Made by a program: the position numbers and the translations under genes
The notes under the pieces: model-generated
Databases searched by the model: none
Told to the model about the DNA's origin: nothing
Seen by the model: the letters and a program-made list of their open reading frames with translations, nothing else
Part shown: piece by piece, positions 1,131 to 20,276 of the stretch
Layout of the letters: each line of letters opens with the position of its first letter
How positions within the stretch are numbered: the stretch's first letter is position 1
Virus record (IMG/VR): IMGVR_UViG_2698536454_000007
Source: a virus
Taxonomy: Duplodnaviria > Heunggongvirae > Uroviricota > Caudoviricetes
DNA length: 38,464 nt
Reading direction: 5' to 3' (one strand)

Positions 1131-1183
1131 CGGCGGCAGAGCAGTCACGGAGTAAAACTGATACCGCCAAACGTCACCAGAAA
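1131..1183 (-). ncRNA. dicF: DicF small regulatory RNA (about 53 nt, processed from the dicB operon transcript)
   Basis: Reverse complement of 1131-1183 reads TTTCTGGTGACGTTTGGCGGTATCAGTTTTACTCCGTGACTGCTCTGCCGCCG followed by TTTTT, matching the DicF sequence as I recall it at 52 of 53 positions. It lies between ydfC-like and dicB as in Qin. Ends are approximate. Confidence 0.7.
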
Positions 1184-6239: not shown

Positions 6240-6553
6240 CGCAATGCGAAGTTAAAGAGGCAGCCTCATATTTATCAGAGCTGGTGTACGTCCAATACAG
6301 GAGGTTATCGTGCTGGTTCTCAAATGCGCGCTGGCTATTGCGGCTGTAGTGGCAATTTATTGTCTTGCTATTGTTCTTATGGATCGCCTTTCTGATTGAT
6401 TTTATATTGGCGAGGTGACGGGAGTTAAGTAGAATTGCTGCGGGTGCTTGAGGCTGTCTGCCTCGGGCATGCCACCGTAAGGCAGACAGAGAAAAGCCCC
6501 AGTTAACATTACGCGTCCTGCAAGACGCTTAACATTAATCTGAGGCCCAATCT

Positions 6554-6766
6554 ATGCTTCACAAACGTAGGTTAGCCTCTTACGCGCCGAAAGGCAAGGA
6601 GAAGCAGGCTATGAAGCAGCAAAAGGCGATGTTAATCGCCCTGATCGTCATCTGTTTAACCGTCATAGTGACGGCACTGGTAACGAGGAAAGACCTCTGC
6701 GAGGTACGAATCCGAACCGGCCAGACGGAGGTCGCTGTCTTCACAGCTTACGAACCTGAGGAGTAA
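6554..6766 (+). CDS. mok: Mok-like reading frame, an in-frame N-terminal extension of hok (70 aa)
   Basis: ATG at 6554 with GAGG upstream; same frame and stop as hok, as in chromosomal mok/hok loci. Confidence 0.5.
   Translation: MLHKRRLASYAPKGKEKQAMKQQKAMLIALIVICLTVIVTALVTRKDLCEVRIRTGQTEVAVFTAYEPEE
6611..6766 (+). CDS. hok: Hok/Gef-family type I toxin (51 aa), HokD/RelF-like
   Basis: Product MKQQKAMLIALIVICLTVIVTALVTRKDLCEVRIRTGQTEVAVFTAYEPEE: a single transmembrane helix plus the conserved Hok C-terminal region; AGGAG upstream; fold-back stem (CTGTCTGCC...GGCAGACAG) in the 5' leader at 6457-6490. Confidence 0.85.
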   Translation: MKQQKAMLIALIVICLTVIVTALVTRKDLCEVRIRTGQTEVAVFTAYEPEE

Positions 6767-11236: not shown

Positions 11237-11312
11237 GGCCCTTTAGCTCAGTGGTGAGAGCGAGCGACTCATAATCGCCAGGTCGCTGGTTCAAATCCAG
11301 CAAGGGCCACCA
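11237..11312 (+). tRNA. ileZ: tRNA with CAU anticodon (Met or lysidine-modified Ile2; ileZ-like)
   Basis: Cloverleaf: acceptor GGCCCTT/AAGGGCC, D-arm AGCTCAGTGGTGAGAGC, anticodon loop CTCATAA, T-arm GGTTCAAATCC, 3' CCA. Confidence 0.85.
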
Positions 11313-11319
11313 TCACATA

Positions 11320-11396
11320 CCGCTATTAGCTCATCAGGAAAGAGCGCCAGCCTTCGAAGCTGGCTGCGCGGGGTTCAAGTCCCCGATGGCGGTCCA
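11320..11396 (+). tRNA. argN: tRNA-Arg (anticodon UCG)
   Basis: Acceptor CCGCTAT/ATGGCGG, anticodon stem-loop GCCAG-CCTTCGAA-CTGGC, T-arm GGTTCAAGTCC, CCA end. Confidence 0.85.
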
Positions 11397-11409
11397 TTAT
11401 CTGCATCAT

Positions 11410-11486
11410 GCGTTGTTAGCTCAGCCGGACAGAGCAATTGCCTTCTAAGCAATCGGTCACTGGTTCGAATCCAGTACAACGCGCCA
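11410..11486 (+). tRNA. argO: tRNA-Arg (anticodon UCU, reads AGA)
   Basis: Acceptor GCGTTGT/ACAACGC, anticodon loop CCTTCTAAG, T-arm GGTTCGAATCC, CCA end. Confidence 0.85.
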
Positions 11487-11529: not shown

Positions 11530-11974
11530 GTCTCACAATTCAGACGGTTGACAGTTGTCTGTTTTGCGGGGAGTTTGTTAAAAGAAACTGGCATGGTGAA
11601 TCCCCCTGTGCGGAGGGGCAATCAGCGAGTAGGTATATGGGATAATCGCGGATTCAGGTGCTGGTACTGAATTCACCGGGAGGCACCCGGCACCATGCAA
11701 TGGCACATAGCGCCACTCTCCAGCCCCTCTCCGGAGGGGCTTTCTTATGGACAAAAAAAGCCCGCGCTGGGAGACGCGGGCGGCAAGGAATAAACAACAA
11801 AACGTGAAGTAATATTTCAGCTGGCGAATAATATCCGACAGTAATCACTCTGCGCAATAGCGCGGCCTTTTTCGTATTGCGGGCTGTTGTCTCTCTTCTG
11901 CCATTGTCCTGTAACTTCCGGACTTCAGCCCGCTCCTCATTTTACTCACAATATTATCCCGGCCGGGAGGATTC

Positions 11975-13837
11975 ATGGCATTTAAACACTATGATGTTGT
12001 CAGGGCGGTATCGCCGTCAGACCTTGCTGATGCACTTGCTCAAAAAATTCGTGAAGGATGGCAACCATACGGCGGGCCGTTTTCTTCGTATACGGATGAT
12101 GGCGCAGCACTTATTCAGGCGATTGTCGCAGAAGGTGATGTGGTCGTCAGTGGTGCAACTGAGCCGGAGTGGTACTACGTCATCGTACTGGCCGGGCAGT
12201 CTAATGCCATGGCTTACGGTGAAGGGCTTCCGCTTCCGGATTCATACGATGCGCCCCATCCGCGCATTAAGCAACTGGCCCGTCGTAACACAGTGACTCC
12301 CGGTGGTGAAGTATGCGTATTTAACGACATCATTCCTGCTGACCATTGTCTGCATGATGTTCAGGATATGAGTACGATTAATCATCCCCGGGCTGACCTG
12401 AGCAAAGGGCAGTACGGCTGTGTCGGACAGGGCTTACATATTGCCAAAAAACTGCTTCCGTATATCCCTAATAATGCGGGGATCCTGCTGGTACCATGCT
12501 GTCGTGGTGGTTCGGCATTCACCCAGGGCACGGAGGGGACATTCAGCGAGTCCACGGGGGCCAGTCAGGATTCGGCTCGCTGGGGAGTGGGTAAGCCGTT
12601 ATATCAGGATCTGCTTTTCCGCACGAAGGCAGCATTGCAGAAAAACCCGAAAAACGTTTTGCTGGCGATATGCTGGATGCAGGGGGAATTCGATATGACG
12701 AATGCCAGTTACGCCCAGCAGCCAGCAGCATTTCTTGCAATGGTACAGCAGTTCCGTGCTGACCTTGCCGGGCTGGCGGCGCAGTGTCACGGTGGAAGTC
12801 CGGCATCAGTCCCCTGGATTTGTGGCGACACGACATACGCGTGGAAACAAGAACACGGTACGCAATATGAAGTGGTATATGGTGCATATAAAGGTAAAGA
12901 ATCCCAGCAGATTTATTTTGTTCCCTTTATGACCGATGGTAGCGGAGTTAATACACCGACAAACAACCCGTCAGAAGATCCTGATATTGTCGGGTCTGGT
13001 TATTACGGTTCGGCATCCCGAACGAACAAAAACTGGGTATCATCAAATCGCCCGACGCATTTCAGCTCATGGGCGCGTCGTGGCATTATTCCCGATCGTA
13101 TGGCAACCGCTATTCTGAACGCAGCCGGGCGCACCTCAGCCTTCATTAGTGGTAAGGCACCGGAAATCAAACCCTCGCCCGGCGGCGACACGCCATCGGG
13201 GCCGTCTGAAGATGCATCCATACGCACAATCTCCCTGTTGCCGACAGCCGGAGACGCTGCTGCGCAGGGCTGGAGCATTAAGAATGGCGGAATTCAGTTG
13301 TCAGATGGTGTATTTAAGATCACCAAGCAGAGCAATAAAGCCTGGTCCCTGACGCGCCCGGTGGATGACGCAGTCTCCCTGCTGACACGGGGTGGCAGAC
13401 TGAGCTGTAAGTTTCGCCTGTCAGGCGCACTGACCAACAACCAGTTCGGTCTGGGAATTTATCTGTATACCGATGTAGCGTTACCTGACGTCGTGGCGAT
13501 GACCGGGACTGGTAACCCGTTCCTGATGTCGTTCTTCACCCAGACCACAGACGGCAAACTGAATCTGATGCATCACAAGAAAGCAGGAAACACAAAGTTG
13601 GGCGAGTTCGGGAATTACAGTAACGACTGGCAGACGCTGGAGCTGGTGTTCACCGCCGGCAGTGCCACGGTTGCTCCGAAACTGAATGGAGTGGCTGGCC
13701 CGGCATTCCAGGTCATAAAAGACAGTCTGACAGTGGGACTAAATGCACTGACGCTGACGGATATTACCAAAAATGCAACGTATGGCGTTGAGATAGAAAG
13801 TCTGGTGCTGGAGATAAATGCACCGGCATCATCATAA
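11975..13837 (+). CDS. nanS: Prophage NanS-p-type sialate O-acetylesterase (YjhS family), 620 aa
   Basis: SGNH/SASA signature [14 protein letters not shown] after an N-terminal DUF1737-like region; GGGAGG Shine-Dalgarno; occupies the slot just downstream of stxAB in Stx phages. Confidence 0.85.
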
Positions 13838-13986
13838 AAAGTGAGCCAGTCAAATGGAAAGTATCGTTAAACTCACCGGTAGTGTCAGTGGGTCGTCTGA
13901 GACGCCTGCATGAGTTATCAGAGCCATCAGTACTTAACTGGTGGCTTTTTTATTGTTGTCAGCTTCCGGATAACGGGAGACGGGGT

Positions 13987-14202
13987 ATGTACCAGATGGA
14001 AAAAATCACAACAGGTGTGTCATACACCACGTCAGCGGTGGGAACGGGCTACTGGTTCCTGCAGTTGCTGGACAGGGTTTCCCCGTCTCAGTGGGCGGCA
14101 ATAGGCGTGCTGGGGAGTCTGCTGTTTGGGCTGCTGACATATCTGACTAACCTGTATTTCAAAATCAGAGAGGACCGTCGTAAGGCGGCACGGGGAGAGT
14201 AA
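13987..14202 (+). CDS. S: Class II pinholin, S21-type, with dual-start motif (Met1 and Met4)
   Basis: [71 protein letters not shown], 71 aa; GGGAGACGGGG Shine-Dalgarno. Confidence 0.85.
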
Positions 14203-14206
14203 TTCA

Positions 14207-14551
14207 ATGACTCAAAACTATGAACTGATTGTGAAAGGGATCCGCAATTTTGAGAATAAAGTTACGGTAACTTTAGCGTTACGGGACAAAAAACGCTTTG
14301 ACGGTGAAATTTTTGACCTGGACATCTCGCTGGACCGTGTTGAAGGTGCCGCGCTGGAGTTTTATGAGGCAGCAGCCAGAAGGAGCATCAGACAGGTCTT
14401 CCTGGATGTTGCTGCCGGGTTATGTGAAGGGGATGAGCAGTCACCGGAAAAGCGCCCCATAATTTTAGAGGCGCAGGGTGTGTGGATAACCTACAAAGGA
14501 AAACTGCCGGGAAGAATTACTGGTTCACTGAAGACTCCGCCGAAATGGTAA
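14207..14551 (+). CDS. YdfR-like protein (114 aa) inserted between holin and endolysin
   Basis: GGGGAGAG Shine-Dalgarno 7 nt before ATG, 4 nt after the holin stop; position matches ydfR between essQ and rrrQ in Qin. Confidence 0.6.
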   Translation: MTQNYELIVKGIRNFENKVTVTLALRDKKRFDGEIFDLDISLDRVEGAALEFYEAAARRSIRQVFLDVAAGLCEGDEQSPEKRPIILEAQGVWITYKGKLPGRITGSLKTPPKW

Positions 14552-14789
14552 TTTCACCAGCATATTTTTCTTCCAGTAATGCCGCCAGCCACTTGAAAGA
14601 ATTTTGTTGTTCCTGGGACCATTTGGGGTTGCGTGACTCAAGCAGAAGCGATGCCAGTGTTGGTTGCATTTGTTCTCTGGGAATTGAGAAGGCCAGATAT
14701 GAAAATGCAACAGTGAGAGCATTTACATCATCCCGAAGCCTGGAAATGCAGTCGAGCAACTCCTGTAGAGAAATGGTGTTATTGTCCAT
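14517..14789 (-). CDS. Hypothetical protein (90 aa) encoded antisense within the lysis cassette
   Basis: Minus-strand ATG at 14789 with GAGGA 6 nt upstream and a TACAAT -10-like hexamer just upstream; 3' end overlaps the YdfR-like gene by 35 nt. Confidence 0.5.
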   Translation of the reverse strand: MDNNTISLQELLDCISRLRDDVNALTVAFSYLAFSIPREQMQPTLASLLLESRNPKWSQEQQNSFKWLAALLEEKYAGEITISAESSVNQ

Positions 14790-14894
14790 AAATAATCCTC
14801 ATGATTGTATTGACCTGTTAGCAGCCTGAGGCAACAGGCTGGAACTGATAAACATATCCAGGGGTCCGGAACCGATAAATCCTGATAAATATCC

Positions 14895-15428
14895 ATGAAC
14901 GCAAAAATCAGATACGGCCTGTCGGCTGCCGTTCTGGCGCTGATTGGTGCAGGGACGTCTGCGCCTGAAATCCTCGACCAGTTTCTTGACGAAAAAGAAG
15001 GTAACCACACCACGGCATACCGTGATGGTGCGGGGATCTGGACCATCTGCCGCGGTGCCACCCGAGTGGATGGTAAGCCTGTCGTCCCGGGTATGAAGTT
15101 ATCGAAGGAAAAGTGCGACCAGGTTAACGCCATTGAACGTGATAAGGCGCTGGAGTGGGTGGAGCGCAATATTAAAGTACCGCTGACCGAACCCCAGAAG
15201 GCGGGTATCGCGTCATTTTGTCCTTATAACATTGGCCCCGGTAAGTGTTTCCCGTCTACGTTTTACAGACGGATTAATGCAGGTGATCGAAAAGGTGCCT
15301 GCGAAGCGATTCGCTGGTGGATTAAGGACGGTGGCAGAGACTGCCGTATCCGCTCAAATAATTGCTACGGTCAGGTATCCCGGCGAGACCAGGAAAGTGC
15401 ACTGGCGTGCTGGGGAATTGACAGATAA
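14895..15428 (+). CDS. R: SAR endolysin (T4-lysozyme-like, GH24), RrrD/RrrQ-type
   Basis: N-terminal signal-anchor-release segment YGLSAAVLALIGAGTSA followed by the catalytic region EGNHTTAYRDGAGIWTICRG; the sequence matches recalled DLP12 RrrD almost throughout. Confidence 0.9.
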   Translation: MNAKIRYGLSAAVLALIGAGTSAPEILDQFLDEKEGNHTTAYRDGAGIWTICRGATRVDGKPVVPGMKLSKEKCDQVNAIERDKALEWVERNIKVPLTEPQKAGIASFCPYNIGPGKCFPSTFYRRINAGDRKGACEAIRWWIKDGGRDCRIRSNNCYGQVSRRDQESALACWGIDR

Positions 15429-15520
15429 GCAGAATATTTTGCTGAAAAATGACGTTGGCCAACGCGGGCGGATAACACGAAATCCTGCGAACTGGCAAAA
15501 ACTAAGTGAATAAAAGTAAA

Positions 15521-15560
15521 ACCCCGTTTGTTGGCCGCAAACGGGGTTTTGTGTTTCTGA
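15521..15560 (+). terminator. Strong intrinsic terminator downstream of the endolysin gene
   Basis: 11-12 bp perfect stem AAACCCCGTTTG...CAAACGGGGTTT followed by TGTGTTTCT. Confidence 0.7.
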
Positions 15561-15583
15561 CCTTGAGTAAGGCAAGGGAGAAC

Positions 15584-15766
15584 ATGGGAAAGTATAAACG
15601 AATTCTGTTGAGATTGACTATGAAAAACGGCCTTGAACTGAAAGCGCCTGTAACTGATGACGTCAGCAGAGCGCTGGCTTTTGCTATTAAGTGGGTGGCG
15701 GTCGGTATTGCTGTGTCTCCGATGCTGTATGGGCTGGCAAAACTGGTCATTGCGTTGAAATCGTGA
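15584..15766 (+). CDS. Small hypothetical protein (60 aa) with a C-terminal hydrophobic segment
   Basis: AAGGGAG Shine-Dalgarno 4 nt before ATG 15584; the ORF-track entry at 15506 is a longer version that runs through the terminator hairpin. Confidence 0.4.
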   Translation: MGKYKRILLRLTMKNGLELKAPVTDDVSRALAFAIKWVAVGIAVSPMLYGLAKLVIALKS

Positions 15767-15778
15767 AGAGGATTAAGC

Positions 15779-15910
15779 ATGTCAGACAAGCTCATAACGC
15801 TGGCGAAGATCCTCTGTGTAATCGTCGGCATTTCATTTTCACTAATGCTGGTTGCTATTTGCTTTGCCACTGCCTGGCGCGTCTTAACTTTGTCATGGCT
15901 GGTGGGGTGA
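15779..15910 (+). CDS. Small hydrophobic membrane peptide (43 aa)
   Basis: GAGGA Shine-Dalgarno before ATG 15779; single predicted transmembrane helix ([26 protein letters not shown]); its stop overlaps the Rz Shine-Dalgarno. Confidence 0.35.
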
Positions 15911-15917
15911 GGGGGAT

Positions 15918-16385
15918 ATGAACCGTGTTCTGTGTGTGGTGATTATTGTCCTGCTGGTAGCCTGTGGTGTGCTTAGTCTGGGGCTGAATCATTACCGCGA
16001 TAACGCCATTACCTACAAAGCGCAACGCGATAAAAAAGCCAGTGAGCTGAAGCTGGCGAACGTGACAATTACTGATATGCAGGTACGCCAGCGTGATGTC
16101 GCTGCACTTGATGCCAGATACTCGAGGGAATTAGCCGATGCGAGAGCTGAAAATGAAACTCTGCGTGCTGATGTTGCCGCTGGTCGTAAGCGCCTGCGCA
16201 TCAACGCCAACTGTCCAGGCTCCTTGCGTAAAGCCCCCATCACCTCCGGCGTGGATAATGCAACCGGTCCCCGACTGGCAGAAGCCGCTGAACGGGATTA
16301 TTTCATCCTCAGAGAACGGCTGATGGCAATGCAGAAGCAACTGGAAGGAGCACAGGAATATATCCGTACCCAGTGTATACCGTGA
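15918..16385 (+). CDS. Rz: Inner-membrane spanin Rz
   Basis: N-terminal transmembrane segment followed by coiled-coil-like sequence; GGGGGA Shine-Dalgarno; contains an embedded +1-frame Rz1. Confidence 0.85.
16138..16323 (+). CDS. Rz1: Outer-membrane lipoprotein spanin Rz1, embedded in Rz
   Basis: Lipobox LVVSAC followed by a proline-rich region [19 protein letters not shown]; resembles recalled RzoD. Confidence 0.75.
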
Positions 16386-16851
16386 TGTTTTGTTATGAAG
16401 GTGTTACTGGTAACGTTAAGGTAATTTAACAAAGAGTCAGTTCCGGACTTTATAGTGTGCTCAGTTCATGGACAAAAACGATTTCTGTGATAAATATTTT
16501 GAATATTATTTACAGGTAAATGGAGTGGGGCGCATGGATAGAAATATTACAATAGAGTATGAAGTATATGCCCGTATTGTATGGGCAGAGAAGGCAAAAA
16601 CACGGTAATTCCGTGTGTTGCCATGATACCTGATTGGCAGAATAGTTGTTTGGTTTTGAGTATATAGTCAGCGTTTTTTGTTCAGTAATTGCCCCCTCAA
16701 AAAATAATAAAATAAGGTGATTATTTTTGTTTATTATTTAGTTTTTTTTTGTGTGTTATTTTATTGTTTTTGCGTGGTTTGTTTTTTATTGTTATTTCAT
16801 TAAGGGAAGGTAAATTCAGGATGGCAGTCTGTAGATAATCGGAGGTCACTT

Positions 16852-17166
16852 ATGCTACATGATCACGTGGCAGAATGTCTGGAGAAAAAAGGACTGTACC
16901 GGAGAGCAGCTGAACGATGGGCAAAAGTGATGGTACAGCTAAGTGATGACCAGAAAAGAAAAGTGGCGGCACAGAAACGAGCAGAGTGTTTGCGTAAGGC
17001 GCGCCGGACTCCGGTTTCACCGGTGAACCTGACCGAAATAAAACAAGCGGTCAACAGACTACATTCTGAGTTGGGAATGGGATTTGAAGAGCGGCGGGTA
17101 TTCCGACGATATAAAGGGACAGGAGAACAGAATACGTCCGGAAACGCGCGGTCAAAAAAATGCTAA
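16852..17166 (+). CDS. PerC-family (Pch-like) transcriptional activator, 104 aa
   Basis: GGAGG Shine-Dalgarno 6 nt before ATG; N-terminal motif ECLEKKGLYRRAAERWAKVM fits the PerC family signature as recalled; preceded by a long AT/GT-rich tract. Confidence 0.55.
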   Translation: MLHDHVAECLEKKGLYRRAAERWAKVMVQLSDDQKRKVAAQKRAECLRKARRTPVSPVNLTEIKQAVNRLHSELGMGFEERRVFRRYKGTGEQNTSGNARSKKC

Positions 17167-17202
17167 AAAATATCTGAGAGCGTTATTGCCTGTTACCATA
17201 AG

Positions 17203-17232
17203 AAAAAGCGACTTTAGTGGTCGCTTTTTGTG
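17203..17232. terminator. Bidirectional terminator between the convergent PerC-like and RHH-like genes
   Basis: GCGAC-TTTAGTG-GTCGC hairpin with A-run upstream and T-run downstream. Confidence 0.6.
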
Positions 17233-17247
17233 TCATATATAAGTCGT

Positions 17248-17472
17248 TTAAGTAAACCTGTCTGAACAGGTGCTCTGGTCGTGTTTGTCTTTGTTGGGTA
17301 CAAATTGAGCATGTTTTTCATTAATTAATCTTCTTCTGCAGGCTTCAATAACCCACGCTGAAAAATTACCTGAACCTTTCTGATCAAGAGCGATGTTAAT
17401 TTGTTCAATCATTTGGTTAGGAAAGCGGATGTTGCGGGTTGTTTTTCTGCGGGTTCTGTTCTTCGTTGACAT
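17248..17472 (-). CDS. Small basic protein, possibly ribbon-helix-helix (YlcI-like position before cos/Nu1)
   Basis: Minus-strand 74-aa ORF (MSTKNRTRRKTTRNIRFPNQMIEQINIALDQKG...); weak Shine-Dalgarno; assignment by synteny with DLP12 ylcI. Confidence 0.45.
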   Translation of the reverse strand: MSTKNRTRRKTTRNIRFPNQMIEQINIALDQKGSGNFSAWVIEACRRRLINEKHAQFVPNKDKHDQSTCSDRFT

Positions 17473-17659
17473 GAGGTTGCCCCGTATTCAGTGTCGCTGA
17501 TTTGTATTGTCTGAAGTTGTTTTTACGTTAAGTTGATGCAGATCAATTAATACGATACCTGCGTCATAATTGATTATTTGACGTGGTTTGATGGCGTAGA
17601 TGCACGTTGTGACATATAGATGATAATTATTATCATTTTGCGGGTCCTTTCCGGCGATC

Positions 17660-17830
17660 CGACAGGTTACGGGGCGGCGACCTCGCGGGTTTTCGCTATT
17701 TATGAAAATTTTCCGGGATCCATGTCCGGTTTCTCTTCAAGTTAACTATATGAAAAATATAAAAACAGGTCTTCTGTGAACCGGACATGAACAAAAAACA
17801 GACATGTAAACCGGACATGACCGGTTTTGT
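17660..17830. other. cos: cos site: cosN with the 12-nt cohesive end GGGCGGCGACCT (17672-17683) and a cosB-like array of terminase-binding repeats
   Basis: ...GACAGGTTACG|GGGCGGCGACCT|CGCGGGTTTTCGCTATTTATGAAAATTTTCCGG matches recalled lambda cos termini. Downstream lie CATGTCCGGT (inverted, 17721), an A/T-rich segment, then AACCGGACATGA twice (17779 and 17809). Confidence 0.8.
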
Positions 17831-17866
17831 TGTGATTGTGAGGTGAGAGTTTTTGCGAGGTGAGGA

Positions 17867-18376
17867 GTGGCTACGCAGACTGAAGTTGCCAGGCATTTAA
17901 GTCTGACCGATCGCCAGCTTCGCAGATTGCAGAAATTGCCGGGTGCCCCGATATCGAATAAGCGAGGGCAACTGGATCTGGATGCCTGGCGCGATTTTTA
18001 CATATCGTATCTGAGGAGAAGTAAAAACGATGTGCCTGATGGCGATAGCGAAGACGACTATGAGGAGAAATTGCTTATTGCCAGATGGGAACTGACAGCA
18101 GAACAGGCTGTTACACAGCAGTTAAAAAATGAGGTGTCAAAAGGAAAACTTATTGACACCGGGTTCTGTATTTTTGCCCTCAGTAAGCTGGCAATGGCGT
18201 TATCCAGTACGCTTGATTCCATCCCTTTATCCATGCAGCGACAGTTTCCTGATTTAACACCGCGCCATCTTGACCATCTGAAAACCCTTATTGCTAAGGG
18301 GGCAAATCAGTGTGCGCGGGCAGGGGATAAATTACCGGATTTACTCGATGAATATATCAGAGCAACAACTGAATAA
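17867..18376 (+). CDS. nu1: Terminase small subunit (Nu1-like)
   Basis: GTG start with GAGG 6 nt upstream; the C-terminal half (...FCIFALSKLAMALSSTLDSIPLSMQRQFPDL...LLDEYI) resembles lambda Nu1, while the N-terminal HTH region differs. Confidence 0.8.
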   Translation: MATQTEVARHLSLTDRQLRRLQKLPGAPISNKRGQLDLDAWRDFYISYLRRSKNDVPDGDSEDDYEEKLLIARWELTAEQAVTQQLKNEVSKGKLIDTGFCIFALSKLAMALSSTLDSIPLSMQRQFPDLTPRHLDHLKTLIAKGANQCARAGDKLPDLLDEYIRATTE

Positions 18377-20276
18377 TATGATGGCTGCCGTTTCGGTTGC
18401 GCTGCAGCCTCTGGTCAGGGTTGTACCAATGACGGCAGTTGAATGGGCTGATCAAAATTATTATCTGCCTAAAGAATCTTCATATGGTGAGGGAGAATGG
18501 AAAACGCTGCCATTCCAGATCGCCATTATGAACTGTATGGGTAACGACCAGGTTCGCACGGTTAACCTGATTAAATCTGCCCGTGTTGGCTATACAAAGA
18601 TGTTGCTGGGGGTGGTCGGGTATTTTATTGAGCATAAATCCCGAAACAGTCTGCTTTTTCAGCCCACGGATTCTGCCGCTGAAGATTTTATGAAGTCTCA
18701 CGTGGAGGCGACGATTCGGAACGTGCCATGCCTGAAAGACCTTTCCCCATGGCTGGGTCGTAAACATCGTGACAATACTCTCACGCTGAAACGCTTTTCA
18801 TCGGGCGTCGGTTTCTGGTGCCTGGGCGGTGCAGCCGCCAAAAACTACCGTGAAAAATCCGTGGACGTGGTCTGCTATGACGAGCTTTCCTCGTTCGAGC
18901 CGGATGTCGAAAAAGAGGGCTCGCCAACCCTGCTGGGGGATAAGCGTATTGAGGGCTCTGTATGGCCAAAATCCATTCGCGGCTCGACGCCTAAAATCAA
19001 AGGTACCTGCCAGATCGAAAAAGCGGCCAACGAGTCGGCGCATTTCATGCGTTTCTATGTGCCCTGCCCGCACTGTGGGGAGGCGCAGTATCTGAAATTT
19101 GGCGATGAATCCACGCCTTTTGGCCTTAAATGGGAGAAGGACAGCCCCGAAAGCGTTTTCTACCTCTGTGAACATCATGGCTGCGTGATCCATCAGTCTG
19201 AGCTTGACCAGAGTAACGGGCGCTGGATCTGTGAAAACACGGGTATGTGGACCCGTGACGGCCTGATGTTTTTCAGCGCCCGGGGGGATGAAATTCCGCC
19301 GCCGCGCTCCATCACGTTCCATATCTGGACGGCGTACAGTCCGTTCACCACCTGGATACAGATAGTCTATGACTGGCTGGATGCACTGAAAGATCCCAAC
19401 GGCCTGAAAACCTTTGTGAACACCACGCTGGGCGAGACCTGGGAAGAGGCCGTGGGCGAAAAACTCGATCACCAGGTACTGATGGATAAGGTGGTGCGTT
19501 ACACGGCGGCGGTGCCTGCCCGGGTGGTTTATCTGACGGCGGGCATTGACTCGCAGCGAAACCGTTTTGAGATGTATGTCTGGGGATGGGCACAGGGAGA
19601 GGAAGCCTTTCTGGTGGATAAAATCATCATTATGGGCCGTCCCGATGAGGAAGAGACGCTGTTACGTGTGGATGCGGCGATCAACAAAAAATACTGCCAT
19701 GCAGACGGAACCGAAATGACCATTTCCCGTGTCTGCTGGGACACCGGGGGGATCGATGGTGAAATTGTCTATCAGAGGTCAAAAAAACACGGTGTTTTCC
19801 GGGTGCTGCCGGTAAAAGGCGCATCTGTCTATGGCAAGCCGGTGATCACCATGCCGAAAACCCGCAATCAGCGGGGCGTGTATCTGTGTGAAGTGGGGAC
19901 GGACACCGCAAAAGAAATTCTCTATGCCCGTATGAAAGCCGATCCCACTCCTGCGGATGAAGCCACGTCGTATGCCATCCGTTTTCCTGATGATCCGGAG
20001 ATTTTTTCGCAGACAGAGGCGCAGCAACTGGTCGCGGAAGAGCTTGTGGAGAAGTGGGAAAAAGGAAAGATGCGTCTGCTGTGGGATAACAAAAAGCGGC
20101 GTAACGAAGCGCTGGACTGCCTGGTGTATGCCTACGCGGCATTACGTGTGTCCGTGCAACGCTGGCAGCTTGATCTGGCTGTACTGGCAAAATCCCGGGA
20201 AGAAGAGACGACCCGGCCAACCCTGAAAGAACTGGCAGCGAAGCTGTCCGGAGGAGTGAATGGTTACAGTCGCTGA
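18348..20276 (+). CDS. A: Terminase large subunit (gpA-like)
   Basis: MNISEQQ... start overlapping the Nu1 3' end as in lambda; long collinear similarity to recalled lambda A (e.g. YYLPKESSYGEGEWKTLPFQ, WPKSIRGSTPK, TAYSPFTTW). Confidence 0.9.
   Translation: MNISEQQLNNMMAAVSVALQPLVRVVPMTAVEWADQNYYLPKESSYGEGEWKTLPFQIAIMNCMGNDQVRTVNLIKSARVGYTKMLLGVVGYFIEHKSRNSLLFQPTDSAAEDFMKSHVEATIRNVPCLKDLSPWLGRKHRDNTLTLKRFSSGVGFWCLGGAAAKNYREKSVDVVCYDELSSFEPDVEKEGSPTLLGDKRIEGSVWPKSIRGSTPKIKGTCQIEKAANESAHFMRFYVPCPHCGEAQYLKFGDESTPFGLKWEKDSPESVFYLCEHHGCVIHQSELDQSNGRWICENTGMWTRDGLMFFSARGDEIPPPRSITFHIWTAYSPFTTWIQIVYDWLDALKDPNGLKTFVNTTLGETWEEAVGEKLDHQVLMDKVVRYTAAVPARVVYLTAGIDSQRNRFEMYVWGWAQGEEAFLVDKIIIMGRPDEEETLLRVDAAINKKYCHADGTEMTISRVCWDTGGIDGEIVYQRSKKHGVFRVLPVKGASVYGKPVITMPKTRNQRGVYLCEVGTDTAKEILYARMKADPTPADEATSYAIRFPDDPEIFSQTEAQQLVAEELVEKWEKGKMRLLWDNKKRRNEALDCLVYAYAALRVSVQRWQLDLAVLAKSREEETTRPTLKELAAKLSGGVNGYSR

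What the first reader, a model, noticed from the sequence alone, without database searches (positions are those of the whole stretch)
14207..14789. Convergent, 3'-overlapping gene pair inserted between holin and endolysin, including an antisense gene with its own Shine-Dalgarno
Between S and R lie a plus-strand YdfR-like gene and a minus-strand 90-aa ORF, each with a strong ribosome-binding site, overlapping by 35 nt at their 3' ends. The minus-strand gene would be transcribed against late-operon transcription and has a TACAAT -10-like element just upstream of its start. Such an antisense gene inside a lysis cassette could be expressed in the lysogen (superinfection exclusion or lysis timing) and shut off by late transcription. 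I could not assign it to any family.
Basis: seen in the sequence. Interest (0 to 1): 0.6.

Follow-up and report, generated by a model that had tools for sequence, protein, structure and literature searches.

The report
Backward accessory gene inside prophage lysis cassette
The backward-facing 90-codon reading frame between the holin and endolysin genes of this E. coli prophage is a real but uncharacterised accessory gene, already catalogued as a hypothetical protein, whose relatives are an ordinary chromosomal gene next to dinI and bssS in Serratia and related bacteria.

Summary
ydfR (14207-14551, +) and a 90-aa ORF (14517-14789, -) converge and overlap by 35 nt. Both lie between an S21-type holin and a SAR endolysin, and both have good Shine-Dalgarno sequences.

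The minus-strand ORF is a real gene:
- dN/dS is about 0.3.
- It is intact in nearly all homologs, while its mirror ORF on the + strand is broken by scattered stops.
- It has 35-40% identical homologs in other genera.
- It gives a confident three-helix model.

It is not new to databases. It is PHROG 2411 (unknown function), PGAP calls it 'hypothetical protein', and the segment occurs in about 19% of complete E. coli genomes.

It fills a ~300-bp, low-GC variable slot. That slot is empty in K-12 Qin and phage 640R1, and it holds unrelated minus-strand ORFs in other phages.

New here: the family is a syntenic chromosomal gene (pyrC-dinI-X-bssS-solA) in 40 of 42 species genomes of Serratia, Sodalis, Hafnia and relatives. 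E. coli carries it only on prophages.

The proposed TACAAT -10 is variable. It lies 3 nt from the SD, so the two cannot both be used. No terminator was found.

Best reading: a moron-like accessory gene for a small acidic cytoplasmic binding protein. Expression in the lysogen is inferred, not shown. Function unknown; interest modest.

The parts
13920..13948 (+). Intrinsic-terminator-like hairpin upstream of the holin gene (context)
   Evidence: 12-bp stem followed by a T run
13987..14202 (+). Phage-21-type class II holin (S); the second possible start is at 13996
   Evidence: PF04971, 9e-33; phrog_20/9876, holin. dN/dS 0.11.
14207..14551 (+). ydfR (DUF1327). It starts 4 nt after the S stop, is part of the late lysis operon backbone, and is not part of the variable insert.
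   Evidence: PF07041, 1.8e-42. Homology with cassettes that lack the 90-aa gene runs to about 14543-14546. dN/dS 0.44. The K-12 homolog binds the RNase E N-terminal domain (PMC13232886).
14547..14840 (.). Variable cargo slot (moron-like insert): about 294 bp at 44.6% GC against 53-54% in S and R. It is absent from phage 640R1 and K-12 Qin, and is replaced by unrelated minus-strand ORFs in PhiR5_1/HS and Stx2-86.
14517..14789 (-). orf90: gene for an acidic (pI 4.5) soluble 90-aa protein. It has a three-helix core (residues 8-77) and a disordered tail (81-90). PHROG 2411.
14517..14551 (.). 35-nt 3'-3' overlap. It encodes the unconserved, disordered C-terminal tail of orf90 and the constrained C-terminus of YdfR.
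   Evidence: In the overlap, dN/dS is 0.27 in the ydfR frame and 0.91 in the orf90 frame; with 39 sequences the orf90 tail gives 0.68. pLDDT is below 50 for residues 81-90. The tail is not conserved in the family.
14796..14800 (-). Shine-Dalgarno GAGGA of orf90, 6 nt before the ATG
   Evidence: Invariant in 39 distinct homologs
14804..14839 (-). Candidate weak promoter TTGCCT-N19-TACAAT, overlapping a small conserved hairpin (AGCCTG-TTGCCT-CAGGCT). Doubtful.
   Evidence: It scores 9/12 with a non-optimal spacer, the -10 is GACAAT in 13 of 39 alleles, and it was not reported by the scan.
14895..15428 (+). SAR-type endolysin R
   Evidence: PF00959; phrog_7, endolysin.

Best explanation
The minus-strand ORF at 14517-14789 is a genuine protein-coding accessory gene of the moron type. 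It sits in a hypervariable cargo slot between ydfR and the endolysin gene of S21-type lysis cassettes in E. coli lambdoid prophages.

Shown here:
- It is under purifying selection as a protein.
- It has an invariant ribosome-binding site.
- It is absent from otherwise homologous cassettes.
- Its GC content is lower than that of its neighbours.
- It encodes a small acidic soluble protein with a three-helix core and a disordered tail. The tail arises only because the reading frame runs on into the antisense of the end of ydfR.
- It belongs to a family whose main population is a vertically inherited, stand-alone chromosomal gene between dinI and bssS in Serratia, Chimaeribacter, Hafnia, Sodalis and relatives. 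E. coli lacks that chromosomal copy and has the gene only on prophages.

Inferred, not shown:
- Like other genes placed antisense to late operons (lambda bor is the classic case), it is probably transcribed on its own in the lysogen.
- Its product probably acts in the cytoplasm by binding a host protein, as a small stress- or regulator-type factor, rather than taking part in lysis.
- On induction, Q-antiterminated late transcription running head-on through it would oppose its expression.

ydfR is a separate backbone gene, co-transcribed with S and R. The convergent overlap is a by-product of where the insert landed.
For: - Real gene: dN/dS 0.30 (10 sequences) and 0.31 (39 distinct sequences), with a third-position excess (p=0.015). 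The ORF is at full length in 36 of 39 distinct homologs. The wobble-aligned mirror ORF on the + strand (14482-14829) carries stops at six different positions across lineages.
- Family: PHROG 2411; 68 E. coli/Shigella/E. albertii clusters. A profile search finds 35-60% identical homologs in Citrobacter, Serratia, Sodalis, Chania, Gibbsiella and others. A direct tblastn of Serratia X against the window gives 40% identity, E=3e-10.
- Fold: three helices at 8-35, 38-52 and 59-77, with pLDDT 80-82.
- Insert: homology with phage 640R1 stops near 14546 and resumes near 14841. In K-12 Qin the ydfR stop overlaps the rrrQ start. GC is 44.6% against 53-54%.
- Three unrelated minus-strand ORFs (PHROGs 2411, 2572, 1853) occupy the same slot in different phages.
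- In two other prophage contexts the family member also lies antisense to late genes: Citrobacter, upstream of the holin, and P0070, upstream of the terminase.
- Chromosomal orthologs: the order pyrC-dinI-X-bssS-solA is found in 40 of 42 species genomes. In S. marcescens (L097) a dinI terminator lies upstream of X; promoter-like -10/-35 motifs recur upstream of X in many of the chromosomal loci (read by eye).
- K-12 has the syntenic locus without X and with no detectable remnant.
- Soluble and acidic: pI 4.5, no transmembrane-like window.
- Prevalence: the segment is present in 1053 of 5426 complete E. coli genomes and is annotated 'hypothetical protein'.
- Moron criteria and the antisense position as a hallmark of accessory loci: PMC3594210 and PMC7067206.
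Against: - No convincing promoter. The scan finds none. The best candidate has a 19-nt spacer and would start transcription inside the SD.
- No terminator-like site on the minus strand downstream of the stop.
- No expression data of any kind were found.
- Frameshifted or truncated versions (94, 56 and 50 aa) are not rare among protein clusters, so constraint is relaxed in some prophages.
Confidence: 0.55

Rival explanations
1. The functional output is RNA, not protein. Convergent minus-strand transcription between S/ydfR and R acts as an antisense or transcriptional-interference brake. It would damp leaky late read-through into the endolysin gene in the lysogen, or tune lysis timing. The ORF would be secondary.
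For: - The gene lies head-on to the late operon and overlaps the ydfR 3' end.
- No minus-strand terminator was found, so a transcript would extend antisense into ydfR and S.
- Three unrelated ORFs occupy the same slot in the same orientation, so orientation could be what is selected.
- There is precedent for functional prophage antisense RNAs (STnc6030, PMC7067206).
Against: - There is protein-level purifying selection and an invariant SD.
- The same protein is conserved at 35-40% identity as a stand-alone chromosomal gene that is antisense to nothing.
- No Rfam family matches the region.
Confidence: 0.1
2. The protein is a lysis-cassette component proper. It would be a regulator of holin, YdfR or endolysin action, or of lysis timing, made during lytic growth.
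For: - In E. coli it always lies inside S21-type cassettes next to ydfR (80 of 80 IMG/VR loci).
- It travels with S-ydfR even when R is replaced by a different endolysin set.
- The Citrobacter homolog sits next to a holin.
Against: - Its orientation opposes late transcription.
- Many functional cassettes lack it.
- Most family members are chromosomal genes with no lysis genes nearby.
- The protein is soluble and acidic with no membrane segment.
- The linkage to ydfR is explained by the physical overlap.
Confidence: 0.1
3. It is a decaying passenger with no current function in E. coli. The ORF would persist only because the prophage segment is young and spreads by recombination.
For: - Frameshifted (94 aa) and truncated (50-56 aa) forms occur in several clusters and many contigs.
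- There is no clear promoter or terminator.
- dN/dS of 0.3 is only moderate.
Against: - The ORF is intact across up to about 25% amino-acid divergence in Escherichia.
- Its constraint is stronger than that on ydfR (0.30 against 0.44).
- The SD is invariant.
- The mirror frame decays while this frame does not.
Confidence: 0.1

Closest known systems
Phage morons / lysogenic-conversion genes placed antisense to late operons (for example lambda bor, just downstream of Rz)
   Same: - Extra DNA relative to sibling phages.
- Deviant (lower) GC.
- Located in or next to the lysis cassette on the strand opposite to late transcription.
- A single small gene with its own RBS.
   Different: - No recognisable promoter or terminator.
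- Expression in the lysogen has not been shown.
- The product is a cytoplasmic helical protein, not a lipoprotein.
- No sequence or fold relation to Bor.
PHROG 2411 (phage protein family of unknown function) / RefSeq 'hypothetical protein' WP_024234348.1 and relatives
   Same: Full-length match (1-90 of 90, 8.9e-58). The DNA of window 14500-14900 is identical in E. coli SLK172, where this ORF is annotated as WP_024234348.1. The ORF is present in about 19% of complete E. coli genomes.
   Different: Nothing differs; this is the family. It has no assigned function. Its link to a conserved chromosomal gene in Yersiniaceae, Hafniaceae and Sodalis is not recorded in the annotations seen here.
Unnamed chromosomal gene between dinI and bssS in Serratia, Chimaeribacter, Hafnia, Biostraticola, Acerihabitans and Sodalis
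   Same: - Same length class (89-97 aa).
- Same conserved core (ELL..I...R.L.VL..AFSYLAFS ... ES.N ... Q..F..LA).
- 35-40% identity.
- Variable tail.
   Different: - Vertically inherited at a fixed syntenic locus.
- Same strand as its neighbours, with its own intergenic regions and an upstream terminator.
- Not phage-borne and not overlapping any gene.
Other occupants of the same ydfR-R slot: PHROG 2572 (86 aa; PhiR5_1, strain HS) and PHROG 1853 (104 aa; Stx2-converting phage 86 gp06)
   Same: Same slot, same minus-strand orientation, similar size, and all of unknown function.
   Different: No detectable sequence similarity (BLASTP finds no alignment). In those phages YdfR also carries long C-terminal extensions.
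AroQ-type chorismate mutase / PchB three-helix fold
   Different: No sequence relation, and the conserved residues of this family do not include the AroQ catalytic Arg/Lys/Glu set. Scores are in the range of generic helical matches. This is not a member.

Membership tests
Moron (independent accessory transcription unit in a prophage; criteria from PMC3594210) | Extra DNA that is absent from closely related phages at the same position | tested here: met
   Phage 640R1 and K-12 Qin have S-ydfR-R without it. The junctions lie at about 14546 and 14841.
Moron (independent accessory transcription unit in a prophage; criteria from PMC3594210) | GC content that differs from the surrounding genes | tested here: met
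   The slot is 44.6% GC, against S 53.7%, R 53.7% and the whole window 52.3%.
Moron (independent accessory transcription unit in a prophage; criteria from PMC3594210) | Own promoter | tested here: inconclusive
   The consensus scan gives no hit. The best candidate is TTGCCT-N19-TACAAT at 9/12, the -10 is variable, and it abuts the SD.
Moron (independent accessory transcription unit in a prophage; criteria from PMC3594210) | Own terminator | tested here: not met
   No terminator-like site lies on the minus strand between 14517 and 14030. The Citrobacter homolog does have one.
Moron (independent accessory transcription unit in a prophage; criteria from PMC3594210) | Expressed from the repressed prophage | not testable with these tools
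   No transcriptome, Ribo-seq or proteome data are accessible. Literature searches found nothing on this gene.
PHROG 2411 | Full-length significant match to the family profile | tested here: met
   E=8.9e-58, residues 1-90 of 90. The Citrobacter (1.9e-33) and Serratia (4.5e-10) homologs also match.
DUF1327 / YdfR family (the plus-strand partner) | Match above the Pfam gathering score | tested here: met
   PF07041: 143.9 bits against a cut-off of 25.
Known anti-phage defence or superinfection-exclusion proteins (PADLOC) | Match to any defence-system profile | tested here: not met
   No family at E<=1 for orf90, YdfR or the two alternative slot ORFs.
AroQ chorismate mutase fold | Significant structural match plus catalytic residues | tested here: not met

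The most novel reading that the evidence does not exclude
The dinI-X-bssS gene family encodes a previously unrecognised small stress or SOS-linked regulator of Enterobacterales. E. coli lambdoid phages would have captured it and parked it antisense inside the lysis cassette. Expressed from the prophage, it would rewire a host stress or biofilm/SOS pathway, or the RNase E-linked function of its neighbour YdfR. Head-on late transcription would switch it off at induction.
Probability: 0.12. Interest if true: 0.6.

Novelty: new member of a known kind. Interest (0 to 1): 0.3.

Why it matters
About one complete E. coli genome in five, including the B/BL21 laboratory lineage, carries this gene, and nobody knows what it does. 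This work shows three things. It is a real, constrained gene. It sits in a recurrent cargo slot of lysis cassettes. Its relatives are a conserved chromosomal gene wedged between two small stress regulators (dinI and bssS) in Serratia-like bacteria. Together these make a concrete, cheap target: BL21 or Serratia knock-outs and pull-downs. It is an example of phage capture of a host small-protein gene. It is not a new kind of system.

Tried and rejected
- **Family searches.** Pfam, NCBIfam and PADLOC scans of orf90 gave nothing. Pfam on all 54 family members gave only sub-threshold noise.
- **PDB sequence profile.** The best hit was YibL at E=0.13, rejected as noise.
- **AroQ-like fold.** Considered and rejected for lack of catalytic residues.
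- **The 'DUF1823' label** on the PhiR5_1 slot ORF. It scores 15.3 bits against a cut-off of 25, so it is not supported. It also shows no similarity to orf90.
- **The plus-strand 115-aa ORF (14482-14829) as the true gene.** Its dN/dS is as low (0.20), but only because its wobble positions coincide with those of orf90. It is interrupted at different sites in most homologs, so it was rejected.
- **LexA box upstream of orf90.** Reading the sequence shown by eye, the CTGT...ACAG pair is 15 nt apart rather than 8, and the second half is absent from most alleles. Rejected.
- **Sigma-54 promoter upstream of the chromosomal orthologs.** Reading the alignment by eye, no TTGC -12 element is present. Rejected.
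- **Rfam.** No RNA family matches 13800-15700.
- **Remnant of X in the K-12 dinI-bssS spacer.** None was found.
- **DinI or BssS homologs in the window.** None were found.
- **Literature.** Searches for YdfR with lysis terms, for DUF1327, and for the WP accessions or the PHROG id found nothing on this gene. Only the YdfR-RNase E paper was useful.

Full report
**1. What is at the coordinates**

The window is an E. coli lambdoid prophage. The 401 bases around the finding are 100% identical to strain SLK172.

The local gene order is:
- a SASA/NanS-type esterase (11975-13837);
- a terminator-like hairpin (13920-13948);
- a phage-21-type holin (13987-14202; PF04971, 9e-33);
- ydfR (14207-14551; DUF1327, 1.8e-42);
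- a minus-strand 90-aa ORF (14517-14789);
- a lysozyme-family endolysin with a hydrophobic N-terminus (14895-15428; PF00959);
- a terminator-like hairpin and two small ORFs;
- Rz (15918-16385).

The two genes of the finding converge and share 14517-14551, which is 35 nt. ydfR starts 4 nt after the holin stop and has GGAGAG 7 nt upstream. The minus-strand ORF has GAGGA 6 nt upstream of its ATG. TACAAT lies at 14809-14804 on the minus strand. The description is therefore accurate.

**2. Is the minus-strand ORF a gene?**

I collected homologous DNA from complete E. coli genomes chosen by DNA similarity, so the choice was blind to ORF status. I added phage records and 80 IMG/VR contigs.

- In the part that does not overlap ydfR, the minus frame has dN/dS 0.30 with 10 sequences and 0.31 with 39 distinct sequences.
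- Variable sites per codon position are 20/15/34 (p=0.015).
- One plus-strand frame scores as low (0.20). It belongs to a 115-aa ORF (14482-14829) whose third codon positions coincide with those of the minus ORF, so dN/dS cannot separate the two.
- Stop codons do separate them. The plus ORF is interrupted at six different positions in different lineages. The minus ORF is at full length in 36 of 39 distinct sequences; one has a premature stop and two end one codon early.
- The decisive evidence is that the minus-strand protein has homologs at 35-60% identity in other genera, where DNA similarity is gone.
- AlphaFold2 gives a three-helix protein (helices 8-35, 38-52 and 59-77) with pLDDT 80-82 and a disordered tail at 81-90.
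- The protein is acidic (pI 4.5) and has no membrane-like segment.

Frameshifted and truncated versions exist in a minority of clusters, as expected for prophage cargo.

**3. It is already catalogued**

The ORF matches PHROG 2411 end to end (8.9e-58, 'unknown function'). PGAP annotates it as 'hypothetical protein' in every genome I opened. The segment is present at 80% coverage or more in 1053 of 5426 complete E. coli genomes. These include the E. coli B lineage, where it sits in a Rac remnant. Only three records of the INPHARED phage set carry it.

**4. Anatomy of the insertion**

- Cassettes without the gene align with the window up to about 14543-14546, and again from about 14841-14851.
- ydfR therefore belongs to the backbone. 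The variable segment is about 294 bp. Its GC is 44.6%, against 53-54% for S and R.
- In K-12 Qin the ydfR stop overlaps the rrrQ start, so the slot is empty. Phage 640R1 has a 63-nt spacer there.
- Other phages carry different minus-strand ORFs in the same slot. One is an 86-aa ORF (PHROG 2572; PhiR5_1 and strain HS). Another is a 104-aa ORF (PHROG 1853; Stx2 phage 86). Neither shows similarity to orf90.
- The last ten codons of orf90 lie in backbone DNA, antisense to the end of ydfR. There the ydfR frame is constrained (0.27) and the orf90 frame is not (0.91; 0.68 with more sequences).
- That tail is predicted to be disordered and is not conserved in the family.

The 3' overlap is thus a by-product of where the insert landed, not a designed coupling. 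In E. coli the gene is always next to ydfR (80 of 80 IMG/VR loci). It stays with S-ydfR even when R is replaced by another endolysin module or by an IS element.

**5. Transcription signals**

- The SD is invariant.
- The TACAAT reads GACAAT in 13 of 39 alleles. It ends 3 nt before the SD, so a transcript initiated from it would begin inside the SD.
- The best -35 (TTGCCT or TTGAAT) is 19 nt away.
- The consensus scan reports no promoter here and no minus-strand terminator downstream.
- No Rfam family matches the region.

How the gene is transcribed is therefore unresolved.

**6. The wider family**

A profile search of 1.8 billion representatives and a second profile search extend the family to Citrobacter, Serratia, Chania, Chimaeribacter, Gibbsiella, Sodalis and Acerihabitans.

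Prophage members:
- In Citrobacter it is again prophage-borne. It lies just upstream of a holin-lysozyme pair on the opposite strand, and again overlaps the 3' end of a late-strand ORF.
- In another prophage it lies opposite the terminase genes.

Chromosomal members:
- In Serratia and Chimaeribacter it is a chromosomal gene between dinI and bssS.
- A scan of one genome per species found 42 loci. Forty of them have the order dinI-X-bssS on one strand, nearly all flanked by pyrC and solA. They come from about 25 Serratia species plus Chimaeribacter, Hafnia, Biostraticola, Acerihabitans and Sodalis.
- In S. marcescens (L097) a dinI terminator lies upstream of X. Upstream of X, many of the chromosomal loci share promoter-like -10/-35 motifs, as read by eye from the alignment.
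- E. coli K-12 has the same locus without X and without a remnant.

So the family's home is a vertically inherited host locus, and Escherichia and Citrobacter hold it only as phage cargo. The direction of transfer is not proven.

**7. Function**

No library or fold search gives a lead:
- Pfam, NCBIfam, PADLOC and the PDB sequence profile gave nothing.
- Foldseek against PDB and BFVD gave nothing credible.

What can be said is limited. It is a small acidic cytoplasmic helical protein. Its chromosomal relatives sit between two small stress-linked regulators. Its phage copies lie antisense to late genes. That position is described as characteristic of accessory (moron) loci (PMC7067206). The gene meets two of the sequence criteria for morons (extra DNA, deviant GC; PMC3594210) but not the promoter and terminator criteria.

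My best reading is a moron-type accessory gene whose product binds a host protein, probably made in the lysogen and opposed by late transcription after induction. The second half of that sentence is inference. A dedicated lysis role is unlikely because most family members have nothing to do with lysis. An RNA-only role is unlikely because the protein is conserved where nothing lies antisense.

**8. The partner gene**

K-12 YdfR was recently reported to bind the catalytic N-terminal half of RNase E in two-hybrid and pull-down assays, and to co-purify RNA (PMC13232886). I found no evidence that links this to orf90 beyond adjacency.

**9. Verdict**

This is an ordinary kind of thing: an uncharacterised accessory gene in a variable slot of a lysis cassette. 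It is already annotated as hypothetical. The modest new element is its conserved chromosomal counterpart between dinI and bssS. Interest is 0.3.

Noticed in passing
window 15429-15917: A second insertion in the lysis cassette, between R and Rz. It holds a bidirectional terminator-like hairpin (15518-15550) and two small plus-strand hydrophobic ORFs (15585-15766, PHROG 1115; 15779-15910, PHROG 4906), both of unknown function. Many related cassettes have R directly followed by Rz.
   Followed up: partly
window 14482-14829 (+): A 115-aa GTG-initiated mirror ORF lies antisense to orf90, in the frame whose wobble positions coincide with those of orf90. It mimics purifying selection (dN/dS 0.20) but is broken by stops at six different sites in homologs. 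It is an artefact and a caution for dN/dS-based gene calling.
   Followed up: yes
L004 1288-1923; L015 959-1765 (compare window 14207-14551): YdfR proteins of other phages carry long, unrelated C-terminal extensions (211 and 268 aa) after the DUF1327 domain. The recombination junction therefore lies at the end of that domain, and the variable slot can include part of ydfR itself.
   Followed up: partly
L097 4631-5737; L113-L152; L153 2202-2988: A conserved unnamed gene lies between dinI and bssS in Serratia, Sodalis, Hafnia and relatives (40 of 42 species genomes). It is absent from the syntenic E. coli K-12 locus, which has a 286-bp spacer with no remnant.
   Followed up: yes
window 14810-14840 (-); L004, L015, L016 and L098 upstream of their slot ORFs: Each allele of the slot has a short GC-rich hairpin about 40-60 nt upstream of the minus-strand ORF, at the border next to R. 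Here it is AGCCTG-TTGCCT-CAGGCT; in the other alleles and in the Citrobacter prophage it is CGCCAGTG...CACTGGCG. Its role is unknown.
   Followed up: no
window 1131-1182 (-), 6442-6616 (+), 11237-11483 (+), 11562-11752 (+): Rfam gathering-level hits elsewhere in the prophage: DicF antisense RNA, sok antitoxin RNA (a hok/sok module), three tRNA genes (Ile, Arg and Arg in the SLK172 annotation) and sRNA STnc100 upstream of the esterase gene.
   Followed up: no
L003 (phiSTEC1575-Stx2k) and L012 (strain M11957): The S-ydfR-orf90 module is followed not by R but by a second, different lysis set (two holin-family genes and an M15 peptidase). An iraM-like anti-adaptor gene lies on the opposite strand just upstream of S. 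In M11957 the S gene is frameshifted.
   Followed up: no
window about 16850-18860 (from the SLK172 annotation, L005 11352-13356): A PerC-family regulator gene, a YlcI/YnfO-family gene and an IS3-family transposase lie between Rz and the terminase genes.
   Followed up: no
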